Shown here in pieces: positions 24,459 through 57,559 of a stretch of 64,000 bases of DNA. Under the pieces are notes generated by a model. It ran no database searches. It saw only the letters and a program-made list of their open reading frames with translations, and was not told the origin of the DNA. A program made the position numbers and the translations under genes. The stretch is from Mobula hypostoma (taxonomy: Eukaryota). The DNA lies in contig NC_086097.1 of the NCBI RefSeq assembly GCF_963921235.1, positions 54,686,001 through 54,750,000 of the forward strand, read 5' to 3'. The first letter of the stretch is position 1; each line of letters begins with the position of its first letter.

Positions 24459-24797
24459 ATAGAAACATAGAAAACCTACAGCACAATACAGGCCCTTCGG
24501 CCCACAAAGCTGTGCCACACATGTTCCTACCTTAAAACTACTTCAGCTTTACCCATAGCCCTCTATTTTTCTAAGCTCCATGTAGCCATCCAAGAGTCTC
24601 TTAAAAGACTCCATCGTTTCCGCCTCCACTACCGCCGCCGGCAGCCCATTCCACACACTCACCAGTCTCTGCGTAAAAAACTTACCCCTGACGCCTCCTC
24701 TGTACCTACTTCCAAGCACCTTAAAACTATGCTCTCTCACGCTAGCCATTTCAGCCCTGGGGAAAAGCCTCTGACTATCCACACGATCAATGCCTAC
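24459..24797 (-). mobile_element. Young CR1 3' fragment
   Basis: GIDRVDSQRLFPR...FFTQR; same subfamily as 32791-33149 and 36608-37133. Confidence 0.85.
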
Positions 24798-38725: not shown

Positions 38726-38967
38726 CTTGATGATAAGAGATCATTAGCTGTTCCCCGTGTCCTGACATGGAGACCACAGGCCCTGGTAGACTGAAGAGTT
38801 CCTTTTGGATACCACCAATGCTGAATATACGAACAATTAGAGCACTTGTTGAAACAGCAGCCCAACCTTGACCAAGACAGATAGCTTCAATGTTTTCATT
38901 GTCTGCCAGATCAACCATCCATTCTTTATTTGTGTCCCTGGAGTTGAAGTGGATACACTGCAGTGTG
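38726..38967 (-). CDS. WDHD1: WDHD1 exon (~14), TLQCIHFNSRDTNKEWMVDLADNENIEAICLGQGWAAV...GPVVSMSGHGEQLMISYHQ
   Basis: attag acceptor, G|gtaat donor, 242 nt. Confidence 0.95.
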
Positions 38968-39029
38968 CTAATTGGTAGACAAACAGAAAGCAGAACGTCT
39001 TAATATACACAATAATTTCCTTTACAAAG

Positions 39030-39395
39030 TTTAAAATTCAAAGTACATTTATTTTCAAAGTATGTATATGTCACCAAATACTATGCTAAGATTAATCTTT
39101 TACAGGCATTCACAATAGATCAAAGAAACACAATCGAATCAATGAAAAACTACACACAAAAACTGACAAGTAACCAATGTGCAAGAGAAGACAAATTGTG
39201 CAAATACAAAAAGAAACAAATAATAACAAATAAATAATACTGAGAACACGAGTTGTTGAGTCCTTGAAAGTAGGTCCATTGGGTGTGTTCAATGATCAGT
39301 TCTGTGTTGTGGTAAGTGAAGAAGTCCACACTGTTTCAGGAGTCTGATAATAGAAGGATAATAACTGTTCCTAAGCTTGGTGGTATGGGACCACT
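39030..39395 (-). mobile_element. Rex1/Babar-like 3' UTR fragment
   Basis: Reverse complement matches 13120-13480. Confidence 0.65.
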
Positions 39396-39569
39396 AATCC
39401 AGCATTTTATATTGGACCTTCAAGGAGAAATAAGCAAACTGAATGTGCTGAACAATTTAAGAAATTAATTTAAGACAGAAGTGCAGATCTGCACATTCTG
39501 TGCCCCACAGTTCCCGAGGAGACGTTAGATTATGCATAATTAGGCACAGCAAGGCCCAATAAAAAGAAG

Positions 39570-41520
39570 TTAGGTTTAAGTGGAGGGGCTATTGTGAGAG
39601 TGGCCATTGTGTGAGTGGGCCAGTGTTAGGGTGGGAAGCTCAGGCTTTGCCAAAGAGAGGTAGAGGCAGTAGGTAGATTTTTTTTGTTTATTTTTCCTTT
39701 CTTACTACACAGTTGGAACAGAGGAGAAGCCAGTCAGGATAGTGAAATGCTCCTCTTACTGGATGTAGGGAGGCTTGGAGAAAATTACGTGTCCCTGACG
39801 ACTACACTTACAAGAAGTGCTTCTAGCTACAGCTTCTTACAGATAATGAAACAGTATTAGAGCCAGAGCTGGATGAACCACGGATCATTCTGGAGACTGA
39901 GGCATTGATCGACAGGACATACAAGGAGGTTATTACACCCAAGGTGCAGGACAGAGATAGCTGGCTGATTGTCAGGAGGTGGAAAGGGGATAGGCAGCCA
40001 GTGCAGAGTACCCCTGTGGCCATTCCAATCAACAACAGGTATACTGCTTGGATACTTTTGCTCGGGGGGGGGCGGGGAACCAGAGCAGGGAGCAGATAGT
40101 GGAGTGGTTATGGGAGAAGGTGCTGTTAAACCTATATGCAACGTCAGGAAACGAAAGTATGGTTGGACTGATGTTCTGGGTAGTGCACATTTCAAAGCAA
40201 AGAGTATTGTAGGAAAAGCAGATGAGGTTAGGGCTTGGATCAGCGCATGGAAGTATGACATTGTAGCCATTAGTGAGACTGGGTTGCAGGACGGGCAGAA
40301 CTGGCAGCTCAGTGTTCCAGGGTTTTGTTGTCTTCGACATGATAGAGTAGAAGGGACTAAAGGGGGAGGGGAAAAAGGACTGAAGAGGCTATATGGATGG
40401 AAATAAGGAAGGGATAACCACATTAATGAGATTATATTATAGACCACATAACAGTTTGCATGATTTAGATAAGGAAATTTGTGGAGATCACAGACTGCTG
40501 CAAGAAACATAAGACTGTAATAATAGCAATAGTAGATGTGGAAAGAATGTTTCCCATGGCTAGGGAATCTAGGACAAGAGGGGTATCCATTTAAAAAAGA
40601 GATGCAAAGAAATTTCATCAGCCAGGTGGTAAATTTGTGGAATTTATTACCACAGGCACCTGTGGAGGCCAGGTCGTTGTTGGGTGTATTTAAGGAGGAG
40701 GTTGATAGGTTCTTGATTGGTCATGGCATCATAGGTTTAGGGAGAAGACCAGGGAGTGGGGCTGAGGAGGGGTAAAAAGAATCAGCCATGACTGAATGGC
40801 CCAATTCCGCTCCTATGTCTTATGGTCTTATCCTGTAGGAGGCTAGTGCAGAAATTGCAGGGGGCCATAGCAGAGATATTTAAAATATCCTTAGTCACTG
40901 GTGAGCTGCCAGAGGACTGGAGGATAACCAATATTATTTCATTGTTTAAGATAGGCTCGAAGAATAAGCCGAGAAATTGCAGGCCAGTGAACCTGACATC
41001 ATTAGTAGTAAGTTATTGGAAGGTATTGTAAGGGACTGCATTTATTTGGATAGAGAGGGACGGATTAAGGATAGTCAACATGGCTTTGTGCAAGGTAGAT
41101 CATATCTAACTAATCTTATAGGGTATTTTGAGGAAGTTACCAGAAAAGTTGATGAAGGCAAGGCAGTGGATGGTGGCTACATGGGCTTTTCAAGGCCTTT
41201 GACAAGGTCCCACATGGAAGGATGGTCGGGAAGGTTCAGTTATTTGGCATTCAAGATTAGGCAGTAAACTGGATTAGACACTGGCTTTGCGGGAGAAGCC
41301 AGAGAGTGGTAGTAGATGGTTGGCTCTCTGATTGGTGACAGAGGCCTGTGACTAGTGAGGTGCTGCAGAGATCAGTGCTGGGTCTATTGTTTGTCATCTC
41401 TGTCAATGGCATGGTTGATAATGCAGTAAACTGGATCAGCAAATTTGCAGATGACACCAAGATTGGGGGTGTCATGGACAGTGAGGAAGACTTCAAAGCT
41501 TGTAGTGGGATCTGGGCCAG
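39570..41520 (+). mobile_element. Decayed, internally deleted CR1 retaining 5' UTR and ORF1 start; nested CR1 3' piece at ~40530-40830
   Basis: ORF1 IDRTYKEVITPKVQ...VQSTPVAIPINNRY; YDIVAISET; SQHGFV; SKFADDTK. Confidence 0.8.
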
Positions 41521-42301
41521 CTATAGATTTCAAACAACATGCAGTAAAATTCCAATAATTGGCAATCCCATTGTTCAGAAATCCTGATGAGTTGGCATCT
41601 GGCTTATTTGCATATTTCCACTTATTGGGGACCCATTTCCCCATACTCCCTTTAAATCCACCTGCTTCATTAGAAAACTTTTGGTGTGCAACATCAAAAA
41701 GTACATTAAAAGTGTATTAGGGATATTAATAGGAATAAAACCCAATAGTTCAGAAAACCTTGACAGCTCCTCACCACCAAATACCCTGGGGCATCATTAG
41801 AAATTTACATTATGTTGACAGCAACGAGAAATTTCTTCTTTTAAGTGAGCAAAAGAGCTTTCCTGGTATATACTGGGCAATGATTCACTTGTGTTTGTGG
41901 GAGCTTTGAGCCAATAACTCGCCATGTTTGGTTAACGATGTTTCAACGTATCAAGGGGAATAAGTTCCATTATATGTTTTTATTCCCAGCATGACAATAT
42001 GCTGTCCTGGAGTGAAGGAGGAATAACTATTTGCAATTCCAGCTCCTAACTATCATCCAACAGCCAGTGTACACGACAAGCTTGGGCAGAGCTACAATAG
42101 ACAGATAATGCCTTTGACAAAATCCCGCACAGTAGGCTAATCGTGAAGTTTAGAACACATGCGATCCAGAATGTGTTAGTTAAGTGGAATCAAAATTGAC
42201 TTGGTGACAAGAGATAGAGGGTGGAGGGTCATTTTTAAATTGTAGGGTTGTGGTAATGAAGTGCCACAGGGATCACTGCTGAATCCCCTGCTGTTTGTCA
42301 T

Positions 42302-42645
42302 ATCATCATTATGTAGCATGTCATATGATATGGGCAATCATGGTCTTGACCATTATTGTTCTTGGCAAATTTTCTACAGAAGTGGTTTGTCATTGCCTTC
42401 TTCTGTGCAGTATCAATGCTCATCAGAGATTGTGTGCCTGGCGTCAGTGGTTGCAAAACCAGAATTTGTGATGTGCACCAGCTACTCATTTGACCATCCA
42501 CCACCTGCTCGCATGGCTTTACGTAACCCTGATTGGGGGTCTAAGCAGGTGAACACCTTGTCCAAGAGTGGCCTGCAGACTAGCATAGGGAAGGAGTGCC
42601 TTACACCTCCTCTGGTGGAGATGCATCTCCACCCCACCACCATTA
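42302..42645 (-). repeat. Short RTE-related non-autonomous retroelement inserted in an old CR1
   Basis: ggcaatgacaaaccacttctg RTE-like 3' motif; (gat)n tail; TSD tttgtcat at 42294-42301 and 42646-42653. Confidence 0.6.
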
Positions 42646-43079
42646 TTTGTCATGTGGAATAATGATTTGTATGGGAATGTAAGTGGCATGATTAGTAAGT
42701 TGGCAAATGACACTAGATTTGATGCTTTAGTGGACGGTGAAGATAGCCTAAAGTTACACTTAGATTAAGATCAATTGGAAAAGTGGGCAAAGGACTAATA
42801 GATGGAAGGTAAATCAGGCACATAAAGGGATGGGAAGTTAAACCAGGGAGGGATATGCACAGTGAATGTTAACACCCTGAGGAGTGTTATTGGAGAGCAT
42901 GATTGAAGGATGCAAGTATAGAACTCCCTAAAAGTGGGAACAGAGTTGGACAAAATCGTGAAAGTGGCGCATGTCATGCCAGGCTTCACTAGTCAGGGCA
43001 ATGGGGTTTAATACAGATTACACAAATTGGCATGGATGAGATGGTCCAAATGTCCTGTTTCCATGCTGTCCAATTCTAT

Positions 43080-43910
43080 GATCATTGCCTAAGTTGTTCA
43101 GGATAGTGTCCGAGGCATAACTATCTCAGCTGCTTCATCAATAACCTTACATTCATCTTGTATTCTGAATCAAGATGTCTGTACAATATTTACCTGTGTT
43201 CACAACATCTCAGAAAGTGAAAGTGTCTGGATGCAACAAGATCTAAACAACAGACAGATAAGTGGCAAATAACACATAACTGCCAGGCAAAGACATCTCT
43301 AACAAAATAAAGTCTATAATCTGTACCCCCAGCTCTCAAAGGCAAAAACATTGCCTCATGCCCTAGATTATTTACTATTGACCAGAAACATAATGGGACA
43401 AGCTATGTTAATAATGTGGCTACGTGAGCCACCCCATAACCTTTCCACCAACTAAAAGGCATGCCAGGAGTGATTAAAGTTGCCTGGAAGAGTGCAACCA
43501 AGAGTGCCTCCTTGACTGATACCTGATGCACGACCCTAAAGGCTCATTCCTTAAGCCACTAGGATCCTGTGCTTGTACACTCTGCAATCTACAAAATAAC
43601 AATGAATACTCAACGTGACTACACTCACTGCATCTCCCAAATCCATGATCACTACATTCTAGAAGGAGAAGAATACAATACCGCCACCTGCAAGTTCCCC
43701 TCCAAGTCTCAATTATCTGAATGGAAATGTATGAGCATTTCTTCATTGTCGTTGGGACTGTATCCTGAAACAGTGGCAGAAGGGGTGAGGAGTGGGTAAT
43801 ACTTTACCTAATGAAACATTTCAAGGCATAGATCATTGCCATCTTCTCAAGTTCAGCTAGGGACAGAGAATAAATAATGGTCATAGCAATGACATACACA
43901 CACAGCCACT
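43080..43910 (+). mobile_element. Ancient L2/CR1-group LINE remnant; related decayed copy at ~49080-50150 on minus
   Basis: Degenerate QQDL...DKWQI.F...CQA..IS region and an aataaat-containing 3' tail; recognised by eye only. Confidence 0.4.
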
Positions 43911-44669
43911 AAAGAAAATCATCACATGCTGCCAACTGGTCTAGTGCTCTCAGGACTGCCAACCAATCTTCTGCTGTAACTTCAACTGAAAATTTACACT
44001 GATATGTCAATACCTTCCTCCTGATCTTTACTGATTATTGATCTCTCAACATCTCAAACTTGAAATTCACATCTTTGCAAATAACAATTGAATGCCTTGC
44101 ACTCCCCATTTCAGTGATGAACAAGTTTCTTTATTCATTTTACTCCAGTCTCTTACACTTGTCTCACTATTATGGCAGGATTGATTGTGCTCACTACTTC
44201 CAGTTGTTATGTTGTTACGTTGTTATGCCCTTGAAGGAAAAAGGGGTGTGCATATAAGAACATCATCACTTCTAAATTCCTTGCCAAGTCATTCTCCTGT
44301 CAGAGTTGGAGTGGATGATTAACATTTCTTGACCATCAGGGACTTTCTATTCTCCTTCCCTACCAGTACTTTCACCAAACACACTCAAAGTTAATTTTTT
44401 CCCAGGATAATTATTTATAGAAGATAAGGAAGTCTTGCCAGAAATGTACACAACTATGAATGAATTCTAAAATAAACCTAAATGTCTTTAAGTTTTGTGT
44501 TGCTCATGGAAATTACTAACACAAGTGTTCAAGTAGAATTGTTGCTGAGATTTGGCCCCCAGACTGAACATTTGATATTGTCAAAGGAGAGAGGAATTCT
44601 GAATTGCAACCACTGAGTAAACATTCAAGAATGATAGTCCAACCTAAATCTCTTAATGGTATTAAGTAT

Positions 44670-44945
44670 TGGGTGCCATAGTAGCAGATCAGTGAGCACA
44701 ACACTATTACAGTTGAGGGAGTTTGAGCTCAGAGTTCAATTCCAGTGCCATTCTGTAAGGAGTCTCGCATGGAATGTGTGGGTTTTCTCTGGTTTCCTCC
44801 CACAGTCCAAAAACATACCAGGTAGATTAATTAGTTATTGTAAATCGTCCAGTGATTAGGTTAGGGTTAATCGGGGTTGTGGCATTGCTGGGGCTGGAAG
44901 GTCCTACTCCGCACTGTATCACCAAATAAAATTTAAAATAAATCA
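44670..44945 (+). repeat. HE1/V-SINE-like SINE
   Basis: gagttcaattcc B box; ggtttcctcccacagtccaaa core. Confidence 0.75.
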
Positions 44946-45005
44946 AACGAACAATTAAAACAGACCAATAAAGATGATTAAAACATCCACCCTCTGCAAT
45001 TTTAC

Positions 45006-45190
45006 CTGGGATGTTCATCAGATTTTGCACAGGCCAACAGCACCGCTTCATGTGATAAATCTGCCATGGTATGATTAAGAAAGTTACTCAAATGAATTGC
45101 GTGGTGTATAGAGGTATCGTGGAATTCTACATCTATAGCATTATCTTGATCATCACTGTAGCAGCGAATAATACCAATGGAATTCCACAC
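45006..45190 (-). CDS. WDHD1: WDHD1 exon (~13), VWNSIGIIRCYSDDQDNAIDVEFHDTSIHHAIHLSNFLNHTMADLSHEAVLLACAKSDEHP
   Basis: gtttttag acceptor, AG|gtaaa donor, 185 nt; start of the SepB domain. Confidence 0.96.
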
Positions 45191-47688
45191 CTAAAAACAA
45201 ACAAGCATATCACGATAAAGAAATACTGTGACTTAAAAGTTAACATTCAGTGTTTGAAGCAAAAGTGTTAAAAAAGAGTGACCTTGGTTCAGAGCACATT
45301 AATTTCATACACAACTTTACGCACAATACAGGATTTTAACTCATGCATCATTGCATTTCAACTAGAACAGAGGTTCTAAATGAATTGCAACATCATCTTA
45401 ACAAAGCAAAGAAGCATGACTATAGTTCCATGACTAGTGTCAAATATAAAATCGCTTTCACTCATTTATTGGAAACTGCTTTGTTATATCCATTACTTGA
45501 AAGGAACTGATCCTGTATTACACAAGTAAAAAGCTACTTTTTATAAAAAAAAATCCCAAAAAAGGTAGTCAGGGACACTTGCTACTCAAAAAATTCTTTT
45601 GGTCCACTTGCTCTCTACTGCCTACATTAACGGCCAAATCAACAGAGTTTTATCAACATAACATACCTGGCACAGTCCTATCATTTTGTGTCCAAACACG
45701 ATTTAACAAATACATTATGGTCACACCGCTAAATTTCATCAACTAAGCCAAGAAAATTACAGCTGTACCTCATCTATAAGCTCAGGAGTGATACAACTGA
45801 AATCTAACTGTGAACTGAAAAGCCATCAGTCTCATTCAGCACAAATCCAAATTACCTCAGAATCGCAATGAAATGCACACTCACATAAGACCCATAATGA
45901 GTTTTCATGATCTAATTTAAGCAATGTACACCAAGCTTATTCAGTAAAGGAATGGTTTGCTTATGTCAAAACAAAACCTGATGCTGAATAGTAGCTACAG
46001 AATAAGGTAAGATGGCGGTGTGCTTGGTCACAGCAACCTCTTACGGGTCCAACAAATGGTGCAAATGTTTGTCTCAAACATTTTTCTTGTGATGGCAAGA
46101 CTCTGTTGGACATTGGTAATACAAAATACTACATCGGGTTCATTGCTGAGACCGATGGTGGGGCAGCTGTGTGGCCTCGGTTGTTGCGCAACAAGGTCCC
46201 CATGCTGAGATGTTACCTGTTACAGCCACCTAGGGGAGGAGGTGCCAGAGGCAATCTGGGAGGGATCAAGGTGTGCTGGAATCCATGCTGGGTTGCAGGC
46301 TGGCCTTCGCAGGCTGACTCTCTTGTTGGTGCAGCTCCCCGGAAGACAAGCTGGACTGCCTTCATCCACGACTGACCCAGCGCGAGAGAAGGAACTGTTC
46401 ATTTTTGCAGAAATGTGGCTCCAGTACAATATCCCATGCACCATTAATCTTCAGAGCATGCCATTCAGAGACTTGAGCTAATATTATTTTGTGACTGTAT
46501 GCGCTATAACTACACGTGCTGTGTGCGACTTTATGTACTGTGTTTTGCACCTTAGACCCAGAGGAATGCCGTTTCATTTAGCTGTATACATGAGTACGGT
46601 TGAATGAACTTGAATCACAAATCAGTGCCTTAACCATCAAATGTCAACAACATGAACATCTTTAGTGGATCTAGAGATCAGTGAACAGCCAAGTGGTAAA
46701 CAACAAACATAATTACACACAATGATCATACATACATTCTTCCTGCCAACACAAGGAACCAGTGTTAGCTGTAAAAATACGAGGGGCATTGGGACTTTGC
46801 AGACCTCAATATAGGGTTCAGTTTGGGTATTACAACAACTAAGCAGCATTCTGCAGAGGCAGAAGAAAAATGAACCACATGTAAGGCACTAAACTGCCTT
46901 CACAACCATCATTCCCGAGACCCTGAATTGCAGTATCCAGTAACACTTGGTCTGCCCACTGCTTGCTTATTGCCTCATGTTTGAAGATTTGACATAGGTC
47001 CAAAGGAGAACTTCGAATAATGACCAAAATGGGAATGTAACTGGCTTTGAAGGATAGATATGAAAAAATGATCATTCCCTCAGATCAGTTCTTAATTCTC
47101 TTGAAAGAAAGTATACTAAATATCACAAAACTGTGGCATCCTAACCTATTGGCTTTAGTCAGCATCTACTTTAAAACTGTGTCCAGGAACAAATGTAAAA
47201 ATTTTTGCGCAATGAGAATGTTTTCACTGGTAGGAGAATCTAGAGCTAGGAATTACCATTTAAAAGTAAGGGATCCTCCATTTAAGACATGCAAGGTAAA
47301 GATTTCCAACTAAGAGAGTTGTTAGATTTTAGAACTCTCAACCTCACAAGGCAGTGGAAGCAATCTTTGAATTTTTTTTAAGACAGAGACAAATGGATTT
47401 TCAATATGAAAGGATTCCAGGGTTGTAAGGAATGCAGAATTGAGTTTATAATGAGATCAGCCTTGATTTTATTGGATGGAAGAGCATGCTCAAGAGACTA
47501 AGTGGTCTACTTTTGCTCCTATTTACTATGTCTGGATATGCACATGCTTGGCAAAGTTGATAGTACTGTCAAGAGTGAAGGGTCATCTCATTCAAAATTC
47601 TGCCCAGAAAAGGCAAGCATGTACCAAAGGCAACAAGTCCAACCTAAGGGCCAGGTATACGTAGGATGGTTGTTTATTTTGTATTTCC

Positions 47689-48379
47689 TATAAGATAGAA
47701 CATAGAACAATACAGCACAGTACAGGCCCTTCAGCCCACAATGTTGTGCCGACCCTTAAACCCTGCCTCCCATATAACCCCACCACCTTAAATTCCTCCA
47801 TATACCTGTCTAGTAGTCTCTTAAATTTCACTAGTGCATCTGCCTCCACCACTGACTCAGGCAGTGCATTCCACGCATCAACCACTCTCTGAGTAAAAAA
47901 CCTTCCTCTAATATTTCCCTTGAACTTTCCACCCCTTAACTTAAAGCCATGTCCTCTTGTATTGAGCAGTGGTGCCCTGGGGAAGAGGCGCTGGCTATCC
48001 ACTCTATCTATTCCTCTTAATATCTTGTATACCTCTATCATGTCTCCTCTCATCCTCCTTCTCTCCACAGAGTAAAGCCCTAGCTCCCTTAATCTCTGAT
48101 CATAATGCATACTCTCTAAACCAGGCTGCATCCTGGTAAATATCCTCTGCACCCCTTCCAATGCCCCCACATCCCCCCCTACAGCGAGGCGACCAGAACC
48201 AGACACAGCACTCCAAGTGCGGCCCTACCAGAGTCCCACAGAGCTGCATCACCACCCTGCGACTCCCAAACTCCATCCCTCAACCCATGAAAGCCAACAC
48301 TCCATAAGCCTTCCTAACCACCCTATCCACCTGTGAGGCAACTTTCAGGGATCCATGGACGTACCCCCAGATCCCCCCC
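47689..48379 (-). mobile_element. CR1 3' fragment whose 5' ~230 bp is A-to-G hypermutated
   Basis: ORF 47688..48206 is the CR1 C-terminus; (ttctatg) 3' tail; see findings. Confidence 0.92.
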
Positions 48380-48410
48380 ACAAACAAAGTTTACCAGCAA
48401 TGGTGCTTAC

Positions 48411-48580
48411 CATGAACCTATGTGAGAGGTGAGATGGTGTGGAACACGGTTGAAAAGGCTTTTGCTTTGGTGTTGGCAATGGTCCAGTGTATCCAACAGA
48501 AACTGGTGCTGCTTGTGCAATACTAGCATGGTCGTCATCGTCATCAGCCACTTTACCTAGATGGATGGGAGATCCAATAT
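48411..48580 (-). CDS. WDHD1: WDHD1 exon (~12), IGSPIHLGK...GPLPTPKQKPFQPCSTPSHLSHRFM
   Basis: tttctttcag acceptor, ATG|gtaag donor, 170 nt. Confidence 0.93.
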
Positions 48581-50683
48581 CTGAAAGAAATTTATAGTTT
48601 AAAAGTGTGATTGAAACATTCCTATGCTTCACCCTCTGCACTATTACAAAATAAAAACCTGGTGATTATAATAACTGTAGTCTCAAATAATTATATTTAT
48701 TTTCATTAAATATAAAGGATTGAAATAGTTTCCTTTGTTAATGGATCAAATATCTCAGGACATATTCTCTGGCACACTTGAGAAATGACAGAAGCTGAAC
48801 CACAGAAATTGTTCCTACTTATTTCCTCTATGGAAAACTGTTCTTGAGTACAGGCGACCCCCGGGTTAGAGACATTTAGGTAACAGAATTTTGCCTTTGT
48901 AGAATTCACAAACCATGGCTCAAAAATTTGAAATACAAAATAAAATTTGGTCTCAAGAAATCTGTGCCAAAAAACAATCAGTATCAACAGCATTTCTTGA
49001 CAGTTGTGCAAACAAAGCAGCTTCACTTTAAAAGGAATAAATAAATCTCACATGGACTTTTTATTTCAGGAATGCAACCAACACACCTCCACCAGCCACA
49101 ACTCCATAATCATTAACTGGTTTTTGTGTGGAGCAACTACATCAGTGCATGTCTGAATATTATCTGGGTCTTGTGCATGTAGGTATGGATTGCCTCAATT
49201 TGAGGATGTTCAGATAGAAGCAGCTTTCATAGAAACCGCAGCAAATATCCCCACTTCTGGCCTCATAATGGGAAAGGATTATGGATGAGACAGCAGAAGA
49301 TGTTGAGCTCAGGACAGTGCCCTTATGAACACCTGCAGTAACGTCCTGTAACTATGATGATTCCTCTTCAATAAAGACATCTATGAATGAGGTAGGACTC
49401 TAACCAGGCTTTACCCCCTCCGCGTGCCTGTTGACTTCAATTTGACCTGGGCTCCCCAGTATCAATTCAGTAAAATGCTGCCTCACTTCATGCATGCCAA
49501 TCTTAGGTCCACATCTGGACTAAGGTTGTGATAAGATCTGCAGCTGTAACCCTGCCGAAGCCCAAACCAGTCAATTGACAGCAAGTGCCTTTTCATAGCA
49601 AATTAGTGTCACTTTCCACGACTTTGTCAGTGCTGTACAGAACACCAATCATATGATTATATAAGCAGATTGGATTGGTTTTGCAATTGTGGACAATATA
49701 TACCTGAGTAATTTTCTACCTTAGTGAATAGTTACCAATGATGAAATCAATGAGTATCAAGGGGAAAAATAACACTTCTGCCCCATGTGTAGGTAACTAT
49801 TGGCATAACCTTGGTAGAGGGGTGGTTACTTTTGGTGTAACATCAAACTTCCATCACCAAGAATGGGGATATTCCTCAACATTCTTCTCCCATTAGCTGC
49901 TTAATTATCTATCACCATTTATGACCAGATTTGCCAGGCCAAGAATCTATTCTTATGGGAATGCATTAATTGTACTGCAATTTCATCAGGCTGACACCTT
50001 GTTTTCTTGGTATATCTGGTATTACACTGGCATGTTCCTACATACTCCTTGTTAGAACCAAATACAATTGTTGGGCTTGATTATAATGGAATAGTGCCAG
50101 GCCATGATTTTACAGATCGTGGTAATCCACATTTGTCTAGTTAAGGGTCTACAGCTGTTTCAAGCTACCATGTCTGACTAAATTCTGCCACACCTCACAA
50201 TCAAAGATATCCTTACTGCTAAGTCATTTGCATAATGTTTCTTAGCACATTCAAAAAATTTTCAAACTGGTTACAGAAGTACATATTCCCACACAAGAAG
50301 TTGTGCTCATTTAAAATCAGTAGTTCCGAATGCAAGGAAACAGAAAATATATTTTACGGATATAGTAAGATGGATTTCTTATTCCCCCTTTAAAAACTGT
50401 TAAATCGCCATTCCTGATTCTTTAATCAAAAAATGACATCCAGTTTACTATTCTTCACCACTGTGGTTTAAATTATCATGAATAATGAAAATAAATTAAA
50501 AAAGCCAAAAGGATGGATGCAACACACACAAAATGCGAGAGGAACTCAGCAGGCCAGCCAGCATCTATGGAAAAAAATACAGTCGACATTTCCGGCCGAA
50601 ACCCTTTGGCAGGACTCATCCTTGTCTCTTCTGAAGATGGATGCATTGATATTTTCACAAAAAAAAATCATTGCTCCTCATAC

Positions 50684-50888
50684 CATGCGAGTTATCATCT
50701 TCAATTGCCCGATGATATCGAGACCGGTTGACTATGCCCATCACATCGTCATCTTCATCATCATCATCTGCTAATGGATGCCTTATTGGTGATGGCTGTG
50801 ACAGATAGGTTTCTTTTGTTGTCAAGTCACCACTTTCTTCATCAAATAAATCACTCACTGTAGTAGCAGTGGAATGCGAAGTCAATCC
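50684..50888 (-). CDS. WDHD1: WDHD1 exon (~11), acidic linker GLTSHSTATTVSDLFDEESGD...DDDDEDDDVMG...IEDDNSH
   Basis: tttttgcttag acceptor, G|gtatga donor, 205 nt; DLFD motif and acidic tract as in AND-1; phases fit. Confidence 0.88.
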
Positions 50889-50961
50889 CTAAGCAAAAAA
50901 AACAATCCATTAATGTATAGTAACTGATTTGAGCTGAAGTATTTGAATCTTTAATAAGGTA

Positions 50962-51682
50962 CCGTGGATTCCAGATAATTGGAACACATTGGGATAGTAC
51001 ATTTTGGCCCAATTAGGCGGCTGCCCCAATTAGCCAAAATTTCATGGAAATGATTAAAAAGGTATTTAAAAAAGACAAATTACTGTTTAACTGAGTAATA
51101 AATTATGTATTTAAATGAAATACAGAGCCAATTAGAACTCTACCAATATTACTACAGTACTATAAAACTGTGTATTAGTTCCTAATAGTTGTCAACGGAG
51201 GAATTCATCCAGTGAATATTACCATGTTCTTTTGATTATTGTAAATTAACAATTCTTTGTAGTTCCTAATATGTTGAAGTGGTGAAATGGTTTCATTTTC
51301 ACTCCTGGCCATTTCTGGCACCTCCAAGCCTGAATGCTTGAAACCGCAGTGAGCAAAACAATTCTGAATTGTTGTATTACTTATTTCTTGCCAACTATCA
51401 GTGACAAAAATCACTGCTTTTTGAACACAAACACATGCAACTGACACCTTTTAAAACTGTTTGCTCTAAGCATGGTGTAGTGTCTAATGGCCTCACAAAA
51501 GCATGTAACTAATGCTCGTTGCAAACTGTTTGGCAACAATCTCCTGTCTCAATTAAGTACCATAGTGTCCCAAATAAATAAATGGGATCTCGGCTATTTT
51601 CTCAATTAATTTTTGTTCTTTAAGAGTTGTCCCAAATAAGCAGCTGCCCCAATTAACCAATGGCCTAATTAACTGGAATCCC
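50962..51682 (-). mobile_element. Tigger/pogo-derived non-autonomous DNA transposon
   Basis: Imperfect TIRs gtggattccagataattgg / cctaattaactggaatccc after TA; ORF 51205..51447 AV.FV.DSWQEISNTTIQNCFAHCGF matches the pogo DDE C-terminal motif. Confidence 0.8.
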
Positions 51683-52027
51683 CCATGTTTTTAAAACAAG
51701 CAATAAAATCAAAAATGTTTATACAAAGGCAGCAAAAGCATTTTAGAGTGTTGAACAAACATTTGTTAATTAAAGTTAATTAATATAACAATTTTCTGCC
51801 AAAGTAAGAGAATAGCAATAACACATGTACTTAAGCTGTACATGCACTAATATAAACACACAATATTTATGAAAATAGATTTAGTACAAAGGCACAATTA
51901 AATAAAGGAGCTTTAACTTTATTTACCATTGGTTACCACCTCAGTAGCATGTTTAAAAAGGACACAGCATAACAACACTAAATTACACAAGGAACTAAGC
52001 ACTCTGTTAACATTCTCTCCAACTTAC

Positions 52028-52157
52028 TTTACTGCTAACATCTGCCCAAATCCCTTCAAACATCCCCAAATTTCCTTCAGAATCCGTATAAGCTAGATTT
52101 CCTTTCAAAGGGTGCCATGCCATTGCACATATTCGATAAGCCTTCTCATGCCGCAAT
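52028..52157 (-). CDS. WDHD1: WDHD1 exon (~10), LRHEKAYRICAMAWHPLKGNLAYTDSEGNLGMFEGIWADVSSK
   Basis: ttccttag acceptor, AAA|gtaagt donor, 130 nt. Confidence 0.92.
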
Positions 52158-52269
52158 CTAAGGAAACACATTTCATAACACTTAATATATCATATTTGAC
52201 ATTTAACAACTCTTTTGAAAGACAGCAAACATACCAGCTGCAGAAAAAGAAGCTTTATTGCTGAAACAG

Positions 52270-52830
52270 CTGCAGTGCCCCCAGGGTTGTGTGCTGGGCC
52301 CATTGCTGTACGCTCTGCTCACACATGATTGCAGGACCAAACATCTGAGTAATCTCAGTCAAGTTCACCGATGACATGACAATGGTGGGGCTCATCACCA
52401 ACAACAATGAGATGGCCTACAGAGAGCAGGTGGAAGAGCTCTAAGCCTGGTGGCAGGCAAATAACCTCTTCCTCAATGTCATCAAGACAAAGGCAATGGT
52501 CATCATCTTCAGAACTCACACCCCTCTTCACACATCAGCAGTGAAAACTATAAGCAGTTTCAAATCCCTAGGAGTGGATATATTGCGCAACCTCTTAAGG
52601 TCCCAGAACACTCTACACAATCAGGGAAGCTCACCAACATCTCTGCTTTCTGAGGAGGCTGGAGAGCTGGACTATGCACATCTATACTCATGTCCTTCTA
52701 CAGATATGCAGTAGAGAGCACCCCAACATGCTGCATCACAGCATGATGTGGAAACTGGACTACAACAGACAGGAAGGCTCGCCAAAGGGGAGTCAAAACT
52801 GCCCGATGCATCACCAGCACGTTTTATTAA
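52270..52830 (+). mobile_element. Rex1/Babar RT fragment
   Basis: PQGCVLGPLLYALLTHDC...KFTDDMTMVGLITNNNEMAYREQVEEL. Confidence 0.8.
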
Positions 52831-52999
52831 GGAATGAGGCTTGGAGTTGCAAGGAGTGAAAGGTGGTAAGTGGGTGGGGTGATATTTCCACTAGCAAAGT
52901 GAATAAAAGTGACAAAATTATCTGCCTATTATCACAAGAACAAAGAGGTAGAATGAAAGTTCTAGAATTCTATAAGTTCTAAACCACACATGATAAATA

Positions 53000-54300
53000 G
53001 CCCAATATCCGTATGATTTCCTTCAGAGGAGAACTTGCCTAACAGGTTGGTTGGAATTCTTTCAGGAAGTAACAAGCAGTTACAAAGAGTCAGTAGATAT
53101 TGTTTACTTGGATTTTCAAAAGGTCTTTTGAAGGTGCAATACGTGAGGCTATTGAGCAAGGTAGGAGTCCATGGTAGTACAGGGAAAGGTAGAAGCATGG
53201 ACAAAAGACTGGCTAGCTGGCAGAAGGCAAAGATTAAGAATAAAGGGGGCCTTCTCTGGTTGACTGACAGTGACTAGTGATGTTCCACGGAGTTCAGTAT
53301 TAGGTCCCCTACTTTTCGCGTTATATTTTCATGATCTGGATGATGGAACTGACGGTCATGTGGCCAAGTGTGCAGATGATACAAAGATAGGTGGAGAAGC
53401 AGGTAGTGCTTAGGAAGCAGGGAGTTTGCAGAAGAACTTGGACAGACTGGGAGAACAGACAAAGTAGCAGATGGAATCTATTGCAGGGAAGTGTATGGTC
53501 ATGCCCATCGGTAAAAGAAATAAAGGTGTAGTCTACTTTTTAAATGGGGAGAGAATTCAAAAATTGGAGGTGCAAAGGTACTTAGGGAGTCCTAATGCAG
53601 AACTTCCCTAAGGAGTCTTAGTAGCAGTTAGTCACAGAGGCAGTCGAGTAACGTAAAACTTCACAGTACCAGCGACCAAGGCTTGATTCCCACAGCTGCC
53701 AGTACAGTAATGAGTTTGTACATTCTCTCCATGCCTGTGTGGGTTTCCTCCAACATTCCAAAACAAAAGATATACGGTTAATTTGTCACTTGGAAGTATT
53801 TGGGTGGTGCTGGCTTGTTGGACCAGAAGGACCTGTTACTGTGCTATAGCTCTAAATAAAATAAAATTAAAGTAAGGAGGCAAAGTAATGTTTGCATTCT
53901 CTTCAAGAGTTCTTGAACATAAAAGCAAGGATGTAATACTGAGGCTTTACAAGGTGTGGTCATAAGTGCAAGAGATTCCGCAGATGCTGGGAATCTTGTG
54001 CAACACACAAAATGCTGGAGGGACTCAGCAAGTCACAGGGTATTTATGGAAGAGAACAAACATTCGATGTTTTGGGTCGCGACCCTTCATCAGGACTAGA
54101 AAGAAAGGAGGCAGAAGCCAGAACAAGGTGAGGATGGGGAAGGAGTACAAGCCGGCAGGTGATTGGTGAGGACAGGCGAGGGAGACGGTAGATTGGTGCG
54201 GGGGGGGGGGTTGAAATTAGAAGCTAGGAGGTGACAGGTGGAAGAAATGAAGGGCTGAAGAAAAAATCTCACAGATAGGATGGTGGATTGTGGAAGAACA
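53000..54300. mobile_element. Old plus-strand CR1 with a nested SINE (~53630-53870), followed by a minus-strand Penelope 3' end (~53965-54300)
   Basis: YLDFQK and ADDTKIGG motifs; SINE core; gcagatgctgg...gcaacacacaaaatgctgg...gacccttcatcaggact. Confidence 0.75.
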
Positions 54301-54927
54301 TGTCACAATCTTCCACACTATATTTCATCTAACAGTCTTTTGCCCATTCACTTAATCTATAGCCGTTTGTGATTTCTTTAGAACATATTAACCTATTTAT
54401 TTTAGTATAATCAGCAAACATGGCTACAGTACTTGAAGTGTTTTTATCCAAGTAATGAATATAGATTATAAATAGTTCAGGCTCCCAGCATTAATCTATA
54501 ATACCAGCCAACACTAGATGCTGGCTGCCAATCTGAAAAAATGACCCACTTATCACTACTCATAGTTTTGATTTTAACTAGTCACTCCCCTGCCTTTGAC
54601 ATTGCACATTTCCGATCATTCATGAGTTTCCAGTCCTCCAGAGTATAGAGAGCCAACAGGGAAAAAAGGTTTTCACTTTATCTCAAACCTTTACCCTTAG
54701 GGTAAGCACATAGCCCCAAATTTCAAGGTTTCCAGCTGGGGGAAACAACTTCACAATATCTACTGTCGTATCATAGATTTCTGACAAATTTCAAAGTTTT
54801 AACCAATGCTCAGATTTCCTTTAACAGAAAAATAAAAGAGATCTAACTATTGCACAATTCAGTACGAGTTCATATTCTAAATTCACAAATGATAACAAAG
54901 TTTCACAAATCAATAGCAGTATAATAC

Positions 54928-55034
54928 CTTTCTATACATTTTTTCGTCTGTACATTCCATACTGCCATGGATCCATCAATACTCCCAGCAGCTACATAAT
55001 CACCACATGGAGACCATGATACAACATTTAATGG
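54928..55034 (-). CDS. WDHD1: WDHD1 exon (~9), PLNVVSWSPCGDYVAAGSIDGSMAVWNVQTKKCIE
   Basis: cctctag acceptor, AG|gtatt donor, 107 nt; WD40 repeat. Confidence 0.93.
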
Positions 55035-55387
55035 CTAGAGGAAATAAAAAGAATATAATTTATTCATGTAATTCTTGAAAAGATTGTCTATTATGCTTTT
55101 CAACAGTATCCAAGTCTCTATGAAATAACTTTCAATTAGCAAGAATACTTTATAACATATAAATACAAGAGTATTTATGAAACAAACTCTTTCCTCCAGA
55201 AACATATTTCCATTATTTTGGTTAAAACATTGATTTTTCTATGATATTCAAACACTAATGCTATTTTCAATTAAGTATTTAAGTTGAGTTAAACTATTCC
55301 TGCTTCATGAAATCATTTTCCTAATACATATATACTTTCTGCTGTTATATCCAAGAAAACTGCTTTTAATTTTTATATAAAGCTTAC

Positions 55388-55480
55388 CATCGTAATGCTG
55401 TCATCTGAAAGATCGGCAACATTTTCCCAGGATTCTCTTTCATACAGTTTTACAACTTTTTCGACTGGAACAGCCAAGAA
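55388..55480 (-). CDS. WDHD1: WDHD1 exon (~8), FLAVPVEKVVKLYERESWENVADLSDDSITM
   Basis: cttag acceptor, ATG|gtaag donor, 93 nt. Confidence 0.93.
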
Positions 55481-55856
55481 CTAAGTGTATGTACCAAACA
55501 GAGAATAAAAAGTTAGACTAAAGAAAACTTTCAGACATGCTTACCTTATTAAATATCAAAACGTAATATCCCAAATCTGTTCAGTCTCTGCTCCTTTAAC
55601 CTATTTTCAAAGTTTATCAGATGAGCTCTGAAGAAACGAATCACCATGCTTAAGACACAGTGCACATTGTTCAAGATTGATGATTTGCAGTAAATACATC
55701 CTGTTTAGAGAACTGTTTTTCACTTACAAATATTAACAATATCCCACTTATCACTTACAACCTGCTTCAGATGAACGGCCATCAAAACTTGGGAAGTGCA
55801 CACTACAACATTGTGCAGCTAGGACAACACAAGCTAAAGCAATTGAAACTATTTAC

Positions 55857-55952
55857 CTTTCCAGACTTTGGTTGCCACTCAAGTCTACAGATGGATGTAG
55901 CACGGTTCACCTCATTGAACTTGGTTAGCAATGGCCAACTGGATGCAAGTGT
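55857..55952 (-). CDS. WDHD1: WDHD1 exon (~7), TLASSWPLLTKFNEVNRATSICRLEWQPKSGK
   Basis: ctttgtag acceptor, AAG|gtaaa donor, 96 nt. Confidence 0.93.
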
Positions 55953-56059
55953 CTACAAAGCAGAACGATACTTTAAGACGATTGCCAAACCTATTAAACA
56001 TGTCATGTTGTAAACCACATATAAGCAACTTGAAATACTTGTTTCTTTTCATGAAAAAA

Positions 56060-56760
56060 ACTTGGGCATATCATGGAACATTCTATCAAGACCAAGGAAC
56101 TGATTGTGGATTTAAAAGGAGAGGAAGTTGGGTGAATACATAACAAGCCTCACTGAAGGAGCAGCAATGGAAAGGAGCAGCAGCTTTAAGTTCCAGTGTC
56201 AGCATCTGAAAGATTCAATCCTGGCCACAATACATCAATGCAATCATGAAGGCAGCAAACCAGTGGCTCTACTTTGTTCAGAGTTTGAGCATATTTGGTA
56301 TGCTACCAAAGACTCTATCAAATTTCTACAGATGTAAAGTGGAGAGCATTCTGACTGCTTGTATCAGAGCCTAGCGTGGAGGCTTCAATGCACAGGACTG
56401 TAAGAAGCCACACAGGGTTGTAGACTCATCATGGGAGCAACTATCTCCACCATAGAGGTCATCTTCAAGAAACAGTGTCTCAAGAAGACGGGATCCATCA
56501 CCAAGGATCTTCACCATCTAGGATATGCCCCCTTCTCATAACTACCATCAAGGTGGCACCTTAGTAACCTGAAGGACATTATCCAAAACTTTCAGAACTG
56601 CTTTTTCCCCTTGCCATCAGATTTCTGGAAGGCTCATGATCATTACCTCATTATTCCTTTTTCTTACACAATTCATTTACTTTTGTAATTTATATATCTT
56701 TGCACTGTTCTGCAGCATGAAATTTAACATCGTATGTCAATGATAGTAAATCTGATTCTG
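56060..56760 (+). mobile_element. Rex1/Babar 3' fragment
   Basis: KTKELIVDF...SSFKF; tail aaatctgattctga. Confidence 0.7.
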
Positions 56761-57054
56761 ACTTCTACAGATGTGCTGCTGAAAGTGTCCTCATGTTGCA
56801 TCAATGGAAGGCATGGCAAGTCAAAGGCACAAGAACATAAAACATGAGGTGCTACCTCAAGAACACAAAGTTCAAATTCATTCTAGATTAACCGCAACTC
56901 TGACTTTGCATGGGACTTAGATGTAGATTTCTCAACCTCAATATGAGTCAAATCATAATTTTTCTTCAGAACATTTTAAAGAATAACACAAATGGCACAT
57001 TTTCGTTCCTAATACTGATCACATAATGTAAACTATAAGACTTATCCAACTAAC

Positions 57055-57105
57055 CTGATCAGATATTTTCCAAATACATACTAATCCATCACAGCTGGAG
57101 GAAGC
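57055..57105 (-). CDS. WDHD1: WDHD1 exon (~6), ASSSCDGLVCIWKISDQ
   Basis: tttttcag acceptor, CAG|gttag donor, 51 nt, phase 0-0. Confidence 0.93.
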
Positions 57106-57336
57106 CTGAAAAATAAAACACCTTGAGATTATTATGAACAAAGCTACTGAAGTATTGAACTGCACAAGAGTTGTAAATATTGCATGCCACTATCACTTAA
57201 AATATCAAAAATACCAAAAGCAAACATTGTAAACCTACTCAGGTAATATAAAGTCTACCACAATTGTTCCATGGCTGAAGCAATTCAAGGTGCTACTAAA
57301 GATTCTATGTGAATCAAGTGATTTTAAATTAATTAC

Positions 57337-57448
57337 CAGATACACATCCTTTGGGTCAAAAGCCACACTGAGAATAGGACCATCATGACCTCGAATTGTC
57401 TTCTGTTGACTATTGTCTTTAACATCAATGATCTTTACCATAAAATCA
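57337..57448 (-). CDS. WDHD1: WDHD1 exon (~5), DFMVKIIDVKDNSQQKTIRGHDGPILSVAFDPKDVYL
   Basis: cag acceptor, gtaatt donor, 112 nt; within ORF 57235..57492. Confidence 0.95.
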
Positions 57449-57559
57449 CTGCAAATTGAAGACACAATACAAAAACTTGAAGCAACATTCATAATTCAAT
57501 TGAAGAAAAATAGATCATGAGAACATAAGAAATAGCAGGCGTTCTGTTTAGTTCACAGT

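What the first reader, a model, noticed from the sequence alone, without database searches (positions are those of the whole stretch)
48150..48379. Genomic fossil of A-to-I hyper-edited RNA: CR1 copy with a dense sense-strand A-to-G tract
Seen: the 5' ~230 bp of this minus-strand CR1 is abnormally G-rich. It translates as AFMG*GMEFGSRRVVMQLCGTLVGPHLECCVWFWSPRCRGDVGALEGVQR. Sibling copies in this window read [24 protein letters not shown] (~4120-4190) and HLEYCSQFWSSHYRKDVETIERVQR (~36619-36695). Most replacements are A>G: TAT/TAC>TGT/TGC (Y>C, three times), AAA/AAG>GGG (K>G), AGG>GGG, CAC>CGC, GAA>GGG, ATA>ATG. CAG>TGG is explained by A>G followed by CpG decay. Many surviving As follow a G. 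The 3' ~460 bp of the same copy looks unedited. Established: ADAR hyper-edits dsRNA, disfavours a 5' G, and reverse transcriptase copies inosine as G; APOBEC would give G>A instead. Inference: a CR1 transcript was partly double-stranded, hyper-edited in the germline and still retrotransposed, with the cDNA truncating within the edited tract. This would be a direct record of ADAR acting on a LINE.
Basis: partly seen in the sequence, partly recalled or inferred. Interest (0 to 1): 0.88.

Follow-up and report, generated by a model that had tools for sequence, protein, structure and literature searches.

The report
Fossil of an ADAR-edited LINE
A dead copy of a jumping gene has a 200-base stretch where half of all A's became G on one strand only, which is the mark of an RNA-editing enzyme acting on the element's RNA before it was copied back into DNA, and a second such copy lies elsewhere in the same genome.

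Summary
The minus-strand element at 47695-48375 is a 5'-truncated copy of a young, abundant APE+RT LINE. About 18,000 copies match one motif, and siblings are about 98% alike.

Against 29 siblings, the tract at 48150-48354 has 29 of 56 ancestral A changed to G on the sense strand. T>C is 0 of 55, and there are only 6 other substitutions. The remaining 455 nt has A>G at 2 of 127 (Fisher p=5e-16).

Edited A's follow T (12/16) or A (10/15) far more often than G (3/15), which is the ADAR motif. No other copy shares the G-rich sequence; the best non-self match is 84%. A DNA contig from a second species label bridges the same exon-to-LINE junction.

A crude motif screen found a second, independent fossil on another contig. 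It has 63/92 A>G in a sharp 339-nt tract, T>C 1/69, and the same neighbour order (pooled p=2e-5). Three mirrored T>C screens gave nothing.

Best reading (about 0.85): ADAR hyper-edited the LINE RNA, which was then reverse-transcribed and inserted in the germline. Not supported: truncation inside the tract. Not found: the dsRNA partner. In nine library searches, published analogues were exogenous or endogenous proviruses, not LINEs.

The parts
47695..48375 (-). 5'-truncated copy (681 nt) of a young CR1-like APE+RT LINE family
   Evidence: All 29 siblings align from q26 (w48375) to about q706. Siblings show variable 5' truncation. A 3-kb sibling has RVT_1 (E=2e-32) and Exo_endo_phos_2 (E=5e-9).
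48150..48354 (-). A>G hypermutated tract (q47-251): 29 of 56 ancestral A are now G on the element's sense strand
   Evidence: T>C is 0/55. Fisher p=5e-16 against the rest of the copy.
48150..48319 (-). Dense core of the tract (q82-251): 28 of 47 ancestral A changed to G
48320..48375 (-). 5'-most 56 nt of the copy, almost unedited. Only 1 of its 12 A's, counted over q26-81, is changed (q47), and a 2-nt AT deletion sits at q40.
47695..48149 (-). Unedited 3' part (q252-706): A>G 2 of 127, both polymorphic among siblings
   Evidence: The closest copies in the genome are 96% identical.
47695..47710 (-). 3' terminus: two TGTTCTA-type tandem units and no poly(A). Siblings carry 2-3 units.
48179..48179 (-). 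One extra G (q222) inside a G run, which shifts the reading frame
48376..48408 (-). 33 nt of host intron between the 5' splice site and the LINE copy
48409..48581 (-). Host-gene exon (173 nt) in the same orientation as the LINE
   Evidence: Transcript-like contigs of 4008 nt (X5) and 3790 nt (X13) cover exactly 48409-48581 and run on unlike at both ends.

Best explanation
A sense-strand RNA of this LINE family was double-stranded over about 170-205 nt. The partner was probably an antisense transcript or an inverted copy in the same transcript. An ADAR-type deaminase converted about half of the adenosines in the duplex to inosine, sparing those that follow a G. The element's reverse transcriptase read inosine as G during target-primed reverse transcription. 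The cDNA was 5'-truncated a few dozen bases beyond the tract and inserted into an intron in a germline (or early embryonic) cell, 33 nt downstream of a 5' splice site. The allele became fixed.

Shown: the substitution spectrum, its strand exclusivity, its bounds, its sequence context, its uniqueness in the genome, its recurrence in a second copy, and the LINE (RNA-intermediate) nature of the element.

Inferred: the enzyme, the duplex partner, and that editing came before insertion.
For: (1) Spectrum: A>G 29/56, against T>C 0/55, G>A 2/61 and C>T 2/32 in the tract, and A>G 2/127 outside it.

(2) Context: the share of A's edited by 5' neighbour is T 12/16, A 10/15, C 4/10, G 3/15 (G against non-G p=0.006). 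G depletion upstream is the published hyper-editing motif (PMC4365171, passage read).

(3) Outlier: 28 A>G in a 200-column window, against at most 6 in 57 siblings.

(4) Not a subfamily: with the tract alone as query, the best non-self hit in the genome is 84%, which is the level of the unedited family (40 of 3597 candidates scored).

(5) Recurrence: the motif screen hit C36:29270172. That 1.4-kb copy (L077) has A>G 63/92 in q342-680, T>C 1/69, and A>G 2/283 in the rest. Its edges are sharp: 12/12 A's before the tract and 4/4 after it are unedited. Its neighbour order is T 22/23, A 14/17, C 11/16, G 16/34. No other copy shares its tract; the best is 75%.

(6) Pooled neighbour effect: T 34/39, A 24/32, C 15/26, G 19/49 (p=2.5e-5).

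(7) Three mirrored T>C motif screens gave 0 hits. Five A>G screens found these two fossils. The denominator motif matched 18,077 copies.

(8) The element has APE and RT domains and LINE-type truncation. The genome has A_deamin exons on 7 contigs.

(9) Reality of the DNA:
- A 2218-nt DNA contig of run X1 matches 48331-48620 with 0 differences.
- X1 has depth in 29 of 29 bins, with no discordant letter listed inside the tract.
- A contig from a second sample (X5) lies on 48190-48251 with 3 differences, where an unedited copy would differ at 10.
- A 2227-nt contig of another species label (X8) bridges the exon, the junction and q26-76.
Against: - No dsRNA partner was found. There is no reverse-complement match longer than 9 nt to the tract within 3 kb of the element. 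The ancestral-like regions fold no better than shuffles (z=-1.59 and -0.40). No inverted family copy lies within 10 kb of the focal copy or in the 1.9 kb held around L077.
- The second half of the ADAR motif, G enrichment downstream, is not seen (42/64 against 50/82, p=0.6).
- The read check does not show individual records across the dense core. X1 may be the sample the assembly came from.
- The screens are insensitive: one missed L077 itself. They give only 2 against 0, and one mirror control was not run.
- No parent copy was identified; the best match to the unedited part is 96%.
- No RNA evidence of editing of this family was obtained.
Confidence: 0.85

Rival explanations
1. Error-prone polymerisation without RNA editing. 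Either the LINE RT misinserted C opposite template A because of a dNTP pool imbalance, or a Pol-eta-like polymerase made T:dGTP mispairs at WA sites during second-strand synthesis.
For: The change is strand-specific and lies in a reverse-transcribed element. The preference for a 5' T or A also resembles the WA motif of Pol eta (recalled, not tested).
Against: 52-68% of the A's are converted, which is an order of magnitude above any polymerase error rate I know of (recalled). The tracts are sharply bounded and internal. One lies at the end of the cDNA made first (L077, q342-680) and the other at the end made last (focal, q47-251). Each leaves 455 to about 1,070 nt of the same cDNA clean (A>G 2/127 and 2/283). 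A pool imbalance would act along the whole cDNA.
Confidence: 0.05
2. Change after insertion. Either a DNA-level process tied to transcription of the host intron, or ADAR editing of the intronic pre-mRNA written back into DNA by RNA-templated repair.
For: The copy lies in sense orientation in an expressed gene, 33 nt from a 5' splice site. A>G on the non-transcribed strand is the direction of the known transcription-associated asymmetry (recalled).
Against: All changes lie inside the element. No inverted copy of the family that could pair with the intronic RNA lies within 10 kb; the only piece is 67% identical and matches another part of the element. Transcription-associated asymmetry is a small bias, not 29 of 56 A's in 205 nt. 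ADAR acting on the DNA strand of an RNA:DNA hybrid (recalled) would give T>C on this strand, and T>C is 0/55. The second fossil shows the same pattern at another locus, so the common factor is the LINE, not this intron.
Confidence: 0.04
3. Assembly or base-calling artefact.
For: The records that cover the dense core were not displayed, and the main DNA run may be the assembly's own sample.
Against: Short-read-derived contigs agree at 48331-48620 with 0 differences. They give depth in all 29 bins with no discordant letter in the tract. A contig from a second sample carries most of the G's at 48190-48251. An artefact would not respect the element's sense strand or the 5'-neighbour rule. It would not recur with the same rule at a second locus.
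Confidence: 0.02
4. Inherited sequence: a G-rich subfamily, or gene conversion or template switching from a diverged relative.
For: Older relatives (L069, L074) have G at 7 of the focal's 29 sites (q82, 91, 106, 164-166, 251).
Against: Those relatives also carry dozens of other differences in q26-251, and the focal shares only one of them (C>T at q46, which 4 of 29 siblings also carry). An overlap of 7 is what chance gives: about 10-13 A>G in that region multiplied by 0.52. No copy in the genome is closer than 84% to the tract. GC-biased conversion would raise T>C as well, and T>C is 0/55.
Confidence: 0.02

Closest known systems
ADAR-type A>G clusters in integrated exogenous retroviral proviruses. 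BLV: three proviruses with 7 or more A>G in about 70 bp of U3 (PMC8025556, passages read). That paper cites HTLV-2 and STLV-3. The avian RAV-1 case is recalled only.
   Same: RNA of a reverse-transcribing element is hyper-edited, and the A>G cluster is preserved in integrated DNA. The clusters are bounded and lie on one strand.
   Different: Those are somatic proviruses of infectious retroviruses, with 7 or so changes. Here the element is a non-LTR LINE that inserts by target-primed reverse transcription. The tracts carry 29 and 63 changes, and the focal copy is fixed in the germline and shared with a second species label.
APOBEC G>A 'DNA-edited' retroelement fossils (PMC4866542, passages read; PMC2873906, passages read)
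   Same: A deaminase signature frozen in a genomic retroelement copy and detected as a one-type, one-strand mismatch cluster against relatives.
   Different: The enzyme class, substrate and direction differ: C>U on cDNA gives G>A. Here G>A is 2/61 and 4/114. That screen kept G>A and filtered out A>G, so it would not have reported fossils of this kind.
ADAR hyper-editing of repeat-derived dsRNA in transcripts (PMC4365171, passages read)
   Same: Dense A>G clusters, G depleted one base upstream, and repeats as targets.
   Different: Those are RNA-DNA differences that never enter the genome. Here the change is in the DNA. The inverted partner usually found within 10 kb cannot be sought, because the source locus is unknown.
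ADAR1 restriction of human LINE-1 (PMC5224506, passages read)
   Same: ADAR meets LINE RNA or RNP.
   Different: That work found restriction independent of editing, and no editing in more than 2.5 kb of L1 RNA. The present fossils indicate real editing of a LINE RNA that still completed retrotransposition.
Mtv61 endogenous MMTV 5' half with A>G excess (PMC12548423, passage read)
   Same: A germline retroelement for which ADAR was considered.
   Different: The authors state that the sequence context does not fit ADAR. Here it does.

Membership tests
ADAR hyper-editing footprint | Changes are A>G on one strand only | tested here: met
   A>G 29/56 against T>C 0/55. Second fossil: 63/92 against 1/69.
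ADAR hyper-editing footprint | A dense, bounded cluster, with a large share of the A's in a stretch the length of a duplex | tested here: met
   Tracts of 205 nt and 339 nt, with 2/127 and 2/283 outside them. The siblings' maximum is 6 per 200 columns.
ADAR hyper-editing footprint | G depleted one base upstream of edited sites | tested here: met
   Pooled edited share: T 34/39, A 24/32, C 15/26, G 19/49 (p=2.5e-5). Motif as described in PMC4365171.
ADAR hyper-editing footprint | G enriched one base downstream | tested here: not met
   3' G 42/64 against others 50/82 (p=0.6). Only 3' T is lower, at 13/28. The numbers are small, and at 52-68% editing the preference may be saturated.
ADAR hyper-editing footprint | A double-stranded RNA partner for the edited stretch | tested here: inconclusive
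   No intramolecular partner within 3 kb of the element. Folds are not unusual. An intermolecular partner or one at the source locus cannot be sought, because the source is unknown.
ADAR hyper-editing footprint | The organism has ADAR enzymes | tested here: met
   PF02137 (A_deamin) exons over the cut-off on 7 contigs. ADAD and ADAT1 share this domain, so it is supportive only.
ADAR hyper-editing footprint | Direct RNA evidence: inosine or an RNA-DNA difference | not testable with these tools
   The editing event is historical. No RNA holder of the stretch was listed.
CR1-clade non-LTR retrotransposon | APE endonuclease and reverse transcriptase domains | tested here: met
   RVT_1 E=2e-32 and Exo_endo_phos_2 E=5e-9 in the 3-kb sibling L065.
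CR1-clade non-LTR retrotransposon | Variable 5' truncation with a common 3' end | tested here: met
   Among the 57 siblings, upstream homology ranges from none detected to beyond 1476 nt.
CR1-clade non-LTR retrotransposon | 3' end of short tandem repeat units instead of poly(A) | tested here: met
   2-3 TGTTCTA-type units at the 3' end of the focal copy and 8 siblings.
CR1-clade non-LTR retrotransposon | Phylogenetic placement of the RT within the CR1 clade rather than L2, Rex1 or another clade | not tested
No repeat library or reference RT set was at hand.
APOBEC DNA-editing fossil | Clustered G>A on the sense strand | tested here: not met
   G>A is 2/61 in the focal tract and 4/114 in the L077 tract.

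The most novel reading that the evidence does not exclude
The two fossils are the visible tip of a regular process. In this vertebrate's germline, LINE RNAs that pair with antisense or inverted copies are hyper-edited by ADAR and remain competent for target-primed reverse transcription. In the second fossil the RT read through 63 edited sites and went on for about 1 kb. RNA editing would then write itself into the genome at a measurable rate and create new G-rich sequence in one step. In the focal case it placed 12 G-runs, against 5-8 in siblings, 30-250 nt downstream of a 5' splice site of an expressed exon. G-runs in that position are known intronic splicing enhancers (recalled), so this copy may have been kept, or tolerated so near an exon, because it was edited.
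Probability: 0.3. Interest if true: 0.78.

Novelty: new variant of a known kind. Interest (0 to 1): 0.64.

Why it matters
Whether ADAR editing shapes retroelements as they copy themselves has long been assumed but not documented. A 2016 review says that roles for ADAR editing in Alu subfamily evolution and in suppressing Alu retrotransposition have "not yet been determined" (PMC4982230, passage read). The one direct test on human L1 found no editing (PMC5224506).

These two copies are clean, checkable genomic records of two things. A LINE RNA was hyper-edited in cells that contribute to the germline. Heavily inosine-substituted RNA can still complete retrotransposition.

The finding turns an open question into a countable one. 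The same alignment test, run on all ~18,000 copies here and on LINE families in other genomes, would give three things:
- the rate of ADAR-edited insertions;
- the length distribution of the duplexes involved;
- a strand-asymmetry control (A>G against T>C).

It also shows that earlier deaminase-fossil screens, which kept G>A and discarded A>G (PMC4866542), would have missed this class.

Tried and rejected
Partner search:
- The reverse complement of the ancestral-like tract against 3 kb of two long siblings gave only 7-9-nt chance matches.
- Folding sibling RNA for both tract regions gave z=-1.59 and -0.40.
- No inverted family copy lies in window 38001-58000 or in L077.

Parent search:
- The unedited 3' part against the genome gave at best 96% identity (40 of 4209 candidates scored).
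- Four 10-kb fetches aimed at full-length siblings turned out to be truncated copies. Four more gave at most about 3.0 kb of shared element. A full-length element was not obtained.

Motif screens:
- P1 gave 9 hits, 8 of them non-focal. Five of those are old relatives with 172-375 differences of all types. Three are young copies with only the 2 motif changes.
- A1 gave 0 hits.
- A3 gave 0 hits and missed L077 because of two unrelated changes.
- A4 re-found only L077.
- The mirror control for A4 was not run. The A>G against T>C comparison therefore rests on three mirrors.

CpG dating: new CpGs decayed in 2/4 (focal) and 0/11 (L077), against 3/8 and 7/18 for 'ancestral' CpGs. This is uninformative, because many ancestral differences are inherited polymorphisms.

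Reads:
- No RNA holder was listed.
- For X8 (organism B), the bins at 48250-48269 have no cover, so the tract in that species is unknown.
- No listed piece spans the whole stretch.

Earlier notes of this scan: three look-ups gave nothing that bears on this.

Literature:
- Nine searches found no report of an ADAR-type tract in a germline LINE copy.
- Knisbacher & Levanon 2015 is not held. I recall only its abstract, which discusses ADAR editing of transcripts, not fossils.
- PMC5974252, PMC5850729, PMC8586724, PMC6669771 and PMC2564838 had no relevant passage.
- Supplements were not consulted.

Not attempted: complex prediction, structure prediction and protein homology searches do not bear on this finding.

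Full report
WHAT IS THERE

The window lies in a 3.48-Gb animal genome. On the minus strand, 47695-48375 is a 681-nt, 5'-truncated copy of a young and very abundant LINE family.
- A 32-place motif of the family, with every A left as R, matches 18,077 places.
- Siblings show every degree of 5' truncation.
- A 3-kb sibling encodes an APE endonuclease and an RVT_1 reverse transcriptase.
- Copies end in 2-3 TGTTCTA-type units without poly(A).

These are the features of a CR1-like non-LTR element. Placement in the CR1 clade proper was not tested.

The copy sits in an intron, in the same orientation as the host gene. It starts 33 nt downstream of the 5' splice site of an exon at 48409-48581. Two transcript-like contigs of 4.0 and 3.8 kb cover exactly that exon.

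CHECKING THE OBSERVATION

The genome offers far better comparators. 29 siblings are 90-91% identical to this copy and about 98% alike among themselves.

I use sense-strand coordinates, q = 48401 - w. Against the sibling majority the copy has 57 differences, distributed as follows:
- Tract q47-251 (w48354-48150): A>G 29 of 56 ancestral A; T>C 0 of 55; G>A 2 of 61; C>T 2 of 32; one T>G; one T>A; one inserted G.
- Dense core q82-251: A>G 28 of 47.
- Rest, q252-706: A>G 2 of 127, both shared with 7-10 siblings.
- Fisher p=5e-16 for tract against rest, and 3e-11 for A>G against T>C.

One of the 29 sites (q144) has G in 5 of the 29 siblings and may be inherited.

As a background control I aligned 57 siblings over up to 2.2 kb each. 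The largest number of A>G in any 200-column window is 6, against 28 for the focal copy.

After that it silently changes frame at the extra G.

IS IT ADAR-LIKE?

The share of ancestral A's that changed depends on the 5' neighbour: T 12/16, A 10/15, C 4/10, G 3/15 (G against non-G p=0.006). [quoted passage not shown] The finer order U~A>C>G is what I recall for ADAR1 and ADAR2.

The downstream G enrichment reported in that paper is not seen. At 52-68% editing it may be saturated, so I score it as not met.

G>A, the APOBEC direction, is at background.

(a) Multi-copy G-rich subfamily: refuted. With the tract alone as query, the best non-self match in the genome is 84%, the level of unedited copies (40 of 3597 candidates scored). 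Older relatives have G at 7 of the 29 sites. They also carry dozens of other differences, of which the focal shares only the polymorphic C>T at q46. An overlap of 7 is what chance predicts.

(b) A>G not in excess: refuted by the counts above.

(c) Raw reads: partly done.
- Contigs from a DNA run of the same species label (X1, single-copy depth about 7.7) match 48331-48620 with no difference.
- X1 gives depth in all 29 bins, and no discordant letter is listed in the tract. In the densest bin (48250-48269) the summed depth is 13.3. Unedited copies differ there by more than the 10% allowed, so what lies there should be this locus. That is an inference, because the records were not displayed.
- A 162-nt contig from another sample (X5) lies on 48190-48251 with 3 differences, where an unedited copy would differ at 10.
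- A 2227-nt DNA contig of another species label (X8) bridges exon, intron and the first 51 nt of the copy with 5 differences and 2 gaps. The insertion is therefore older than the split of those two labels.
- X1 may be the assembly's own sample.

A SECOND FOSSIL

I therefore screened it with short degenerate motifs that demand G at several A sites of the family, each with at most one mismatch.
- Five A>G motifs returned the focal copy and one new locus, C36:29270172.
- Three mirrored motifs demanding C at T sites returned nothing.
- A fourth mirror was not run.

The new copy (L077, about 1.4 kb) shows the following:
- Tract q342-680: A>G 63 of 92; T>C 1 of 69; G>A 4 of 114.
- The 1,051 aligned columns upstream: A>G 2 of 283.
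- Sharp edges: 12 of 12 A's just before the tract and 4 of 4 after it are unchanged.
- 5'-neighbour order: T 22/23, A 14/17, C 11/16, G 16/34 (p=3e-4).

Pooled over both fossils the order is T 34/39, A 24/32, C 15/26, G 19/49 (p=2.5e-5). No other copy shares L077's tract; the best match is 75%.

The screens are crude. One missed L077 itself because of two unrelated changes. Two fossils is therefore a floor, not a rate.

MECHANISM

The simplest account is that sense LINE RNA was locally double-stranded and was hyper-edited by an ADAR. It was then copied by the element's RT, which reads inosine as G, and inserted in the germline.

The two tracts argue against polymerase error or a dNTP imbalance. 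Each is sharply bounded. One lies at the end of the cDNA made first and the other at the end made last. Hundreds of bases of the same cDNA are clean. Over half of the A's are converted.

They also argue against ADAR acting on the DNA strand of the RNA:cDNA hybrid (recalled), which would give T>C on this strand.

GC-biased conversion would raise T>C too.

A process after insertion tied to this intron does not explain a second locus. No inverted partner for the intronic RNA lies within 10 kb.

What is missing is the duplex partner. There is no complement within 3 kb of the element, and the ancestral-like regions do not fold unusually well. The partner was therefore a separate antisense RNA, or an inverted copy at an unknown source locus. 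For L077, a tract that runs from q342 almost to the 3' end is what pairing with an inverted, 5'-truncated copy of about 365 nt would give (inference).

The first 56 nt of the focal copy are almost unedited (1 of 12 A's). In L077 the RT passed all 63 edited sites and continued for about 1 kb.

The genome encodes A_deamin-domain genes on 7 contigs.

COMPARISON WITH WHAT IS KNOWN

The principle is known from retroviruses. Integrated BLV proviruses with 7 or more A>G in about 70 bp are ascribed to ADAR1, with HTLV-2 and STLV-3 cited (PMC8025556).

Deaminase fossils in genomes are known for APOBEC (G>A). The vertebrate-wide screen selected G>A and filtered out A>G (PMC4866542).

For non-LTR elements:
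- A 2016 review says such roles of ADAR editing for Alu are not yet determined (PMC4982230).
- The direct test on human L1 found no editing (PMC5224506).
- An A>G excess in endogenous Mtv61 did not fit the ADAR context (PMC12548423).

Nine searches of the held library found no report of an ADAR-type tract in a germline LINE copy. The library lacks most subscription journals, so this is absence in what I could search, not proof.

I file the finding as a new variant of a known kind. The chemistry is known and the consequence expected, but it is documented here in a new element class and in germline-fixed copies, twice.

VERDICT

- Observation: confirmed.
- Interpretation: supported, with the corrections above.
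- Confidence in ADAR editing of the LINE RNA before insertion: about 0.85.
- Interest: 0.64. The result is clean, recurrent and directly extensible to a genome-wide count. It is also what specialists would have predicted.

Noticed in passing
window 48150-48408 (minus) next to the exon at 48409-48581: The edited tract carries 12 runs of 3 or more G's, against 5-8 in 29 siblings. It starts about 30 nt downstream of a 5' splice site of an expressed exon. G-runs in that position are known intronic splicing enhancers (recalled). Whether this matters for the exon is untested.
   Followed up: partly
window 48409-48581 (minus): A 173-nt exon is confirmed by spliced transcript-like contigs of two species labels. 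Its 57-aa translation has an acidic DDDDD run and no Pfam match. The gene was not identified.
   Followed up: partly
57 sibling copies (L002-L060): Pooled over the siblings, sense-strand A>G (393) exceeds T>C (246) by about 1.6-fold. In the 3' 680 nt, A and T are nearly equal in number. G>A (771) against C>T (402) roughly follows the G:C ratio. This could reflect low-level editing, RT bias or subfamily structure. It was not normalised or tested.
   Followed up: no
L054 (G000:C2:250425079 region), last ~230 alignment columns: A mixed cluster of 13 G>A, 10 T>C, 6 C>T and 5 A>G lies within 200 columns. It looks like a diverged or misaligned 3' part rather than deaminase editing.
   Followed up: no
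L069, L070, L072, L074, L075: Older relatives of the family, 20-40% diverged, carry GGG at q164-166 as their own state. L069 and L074 share a set of differences and form a separate subfamily.
   Followed up: partly
window 48190-48251: A 162-nt, depth-2 contig from run X5 (guessed to be RNA, another sample) lies here on only 62 of its letters, with 3 differences. It may be intronic pre-mRNA of this locus or an allele. The rest of the contig was not seen.
   Followed up: no
window 4012-4507, 24459-24795, 32795-33151, 36619-37132, 40909-41221: Other CR1-like fragments, 65-81% identical to this family, lie on both strands. They are too diverged to serve as ancestors or as dsRNA partners for the focal copy.
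   Followed up: partly
window 48361 and 48179: Besides the substitutions, the focal copy has a private 2-nt deletion (AT after q40) and a 1-nt G insertion (q222) inside a G run created by the edits.
   Followed up: no
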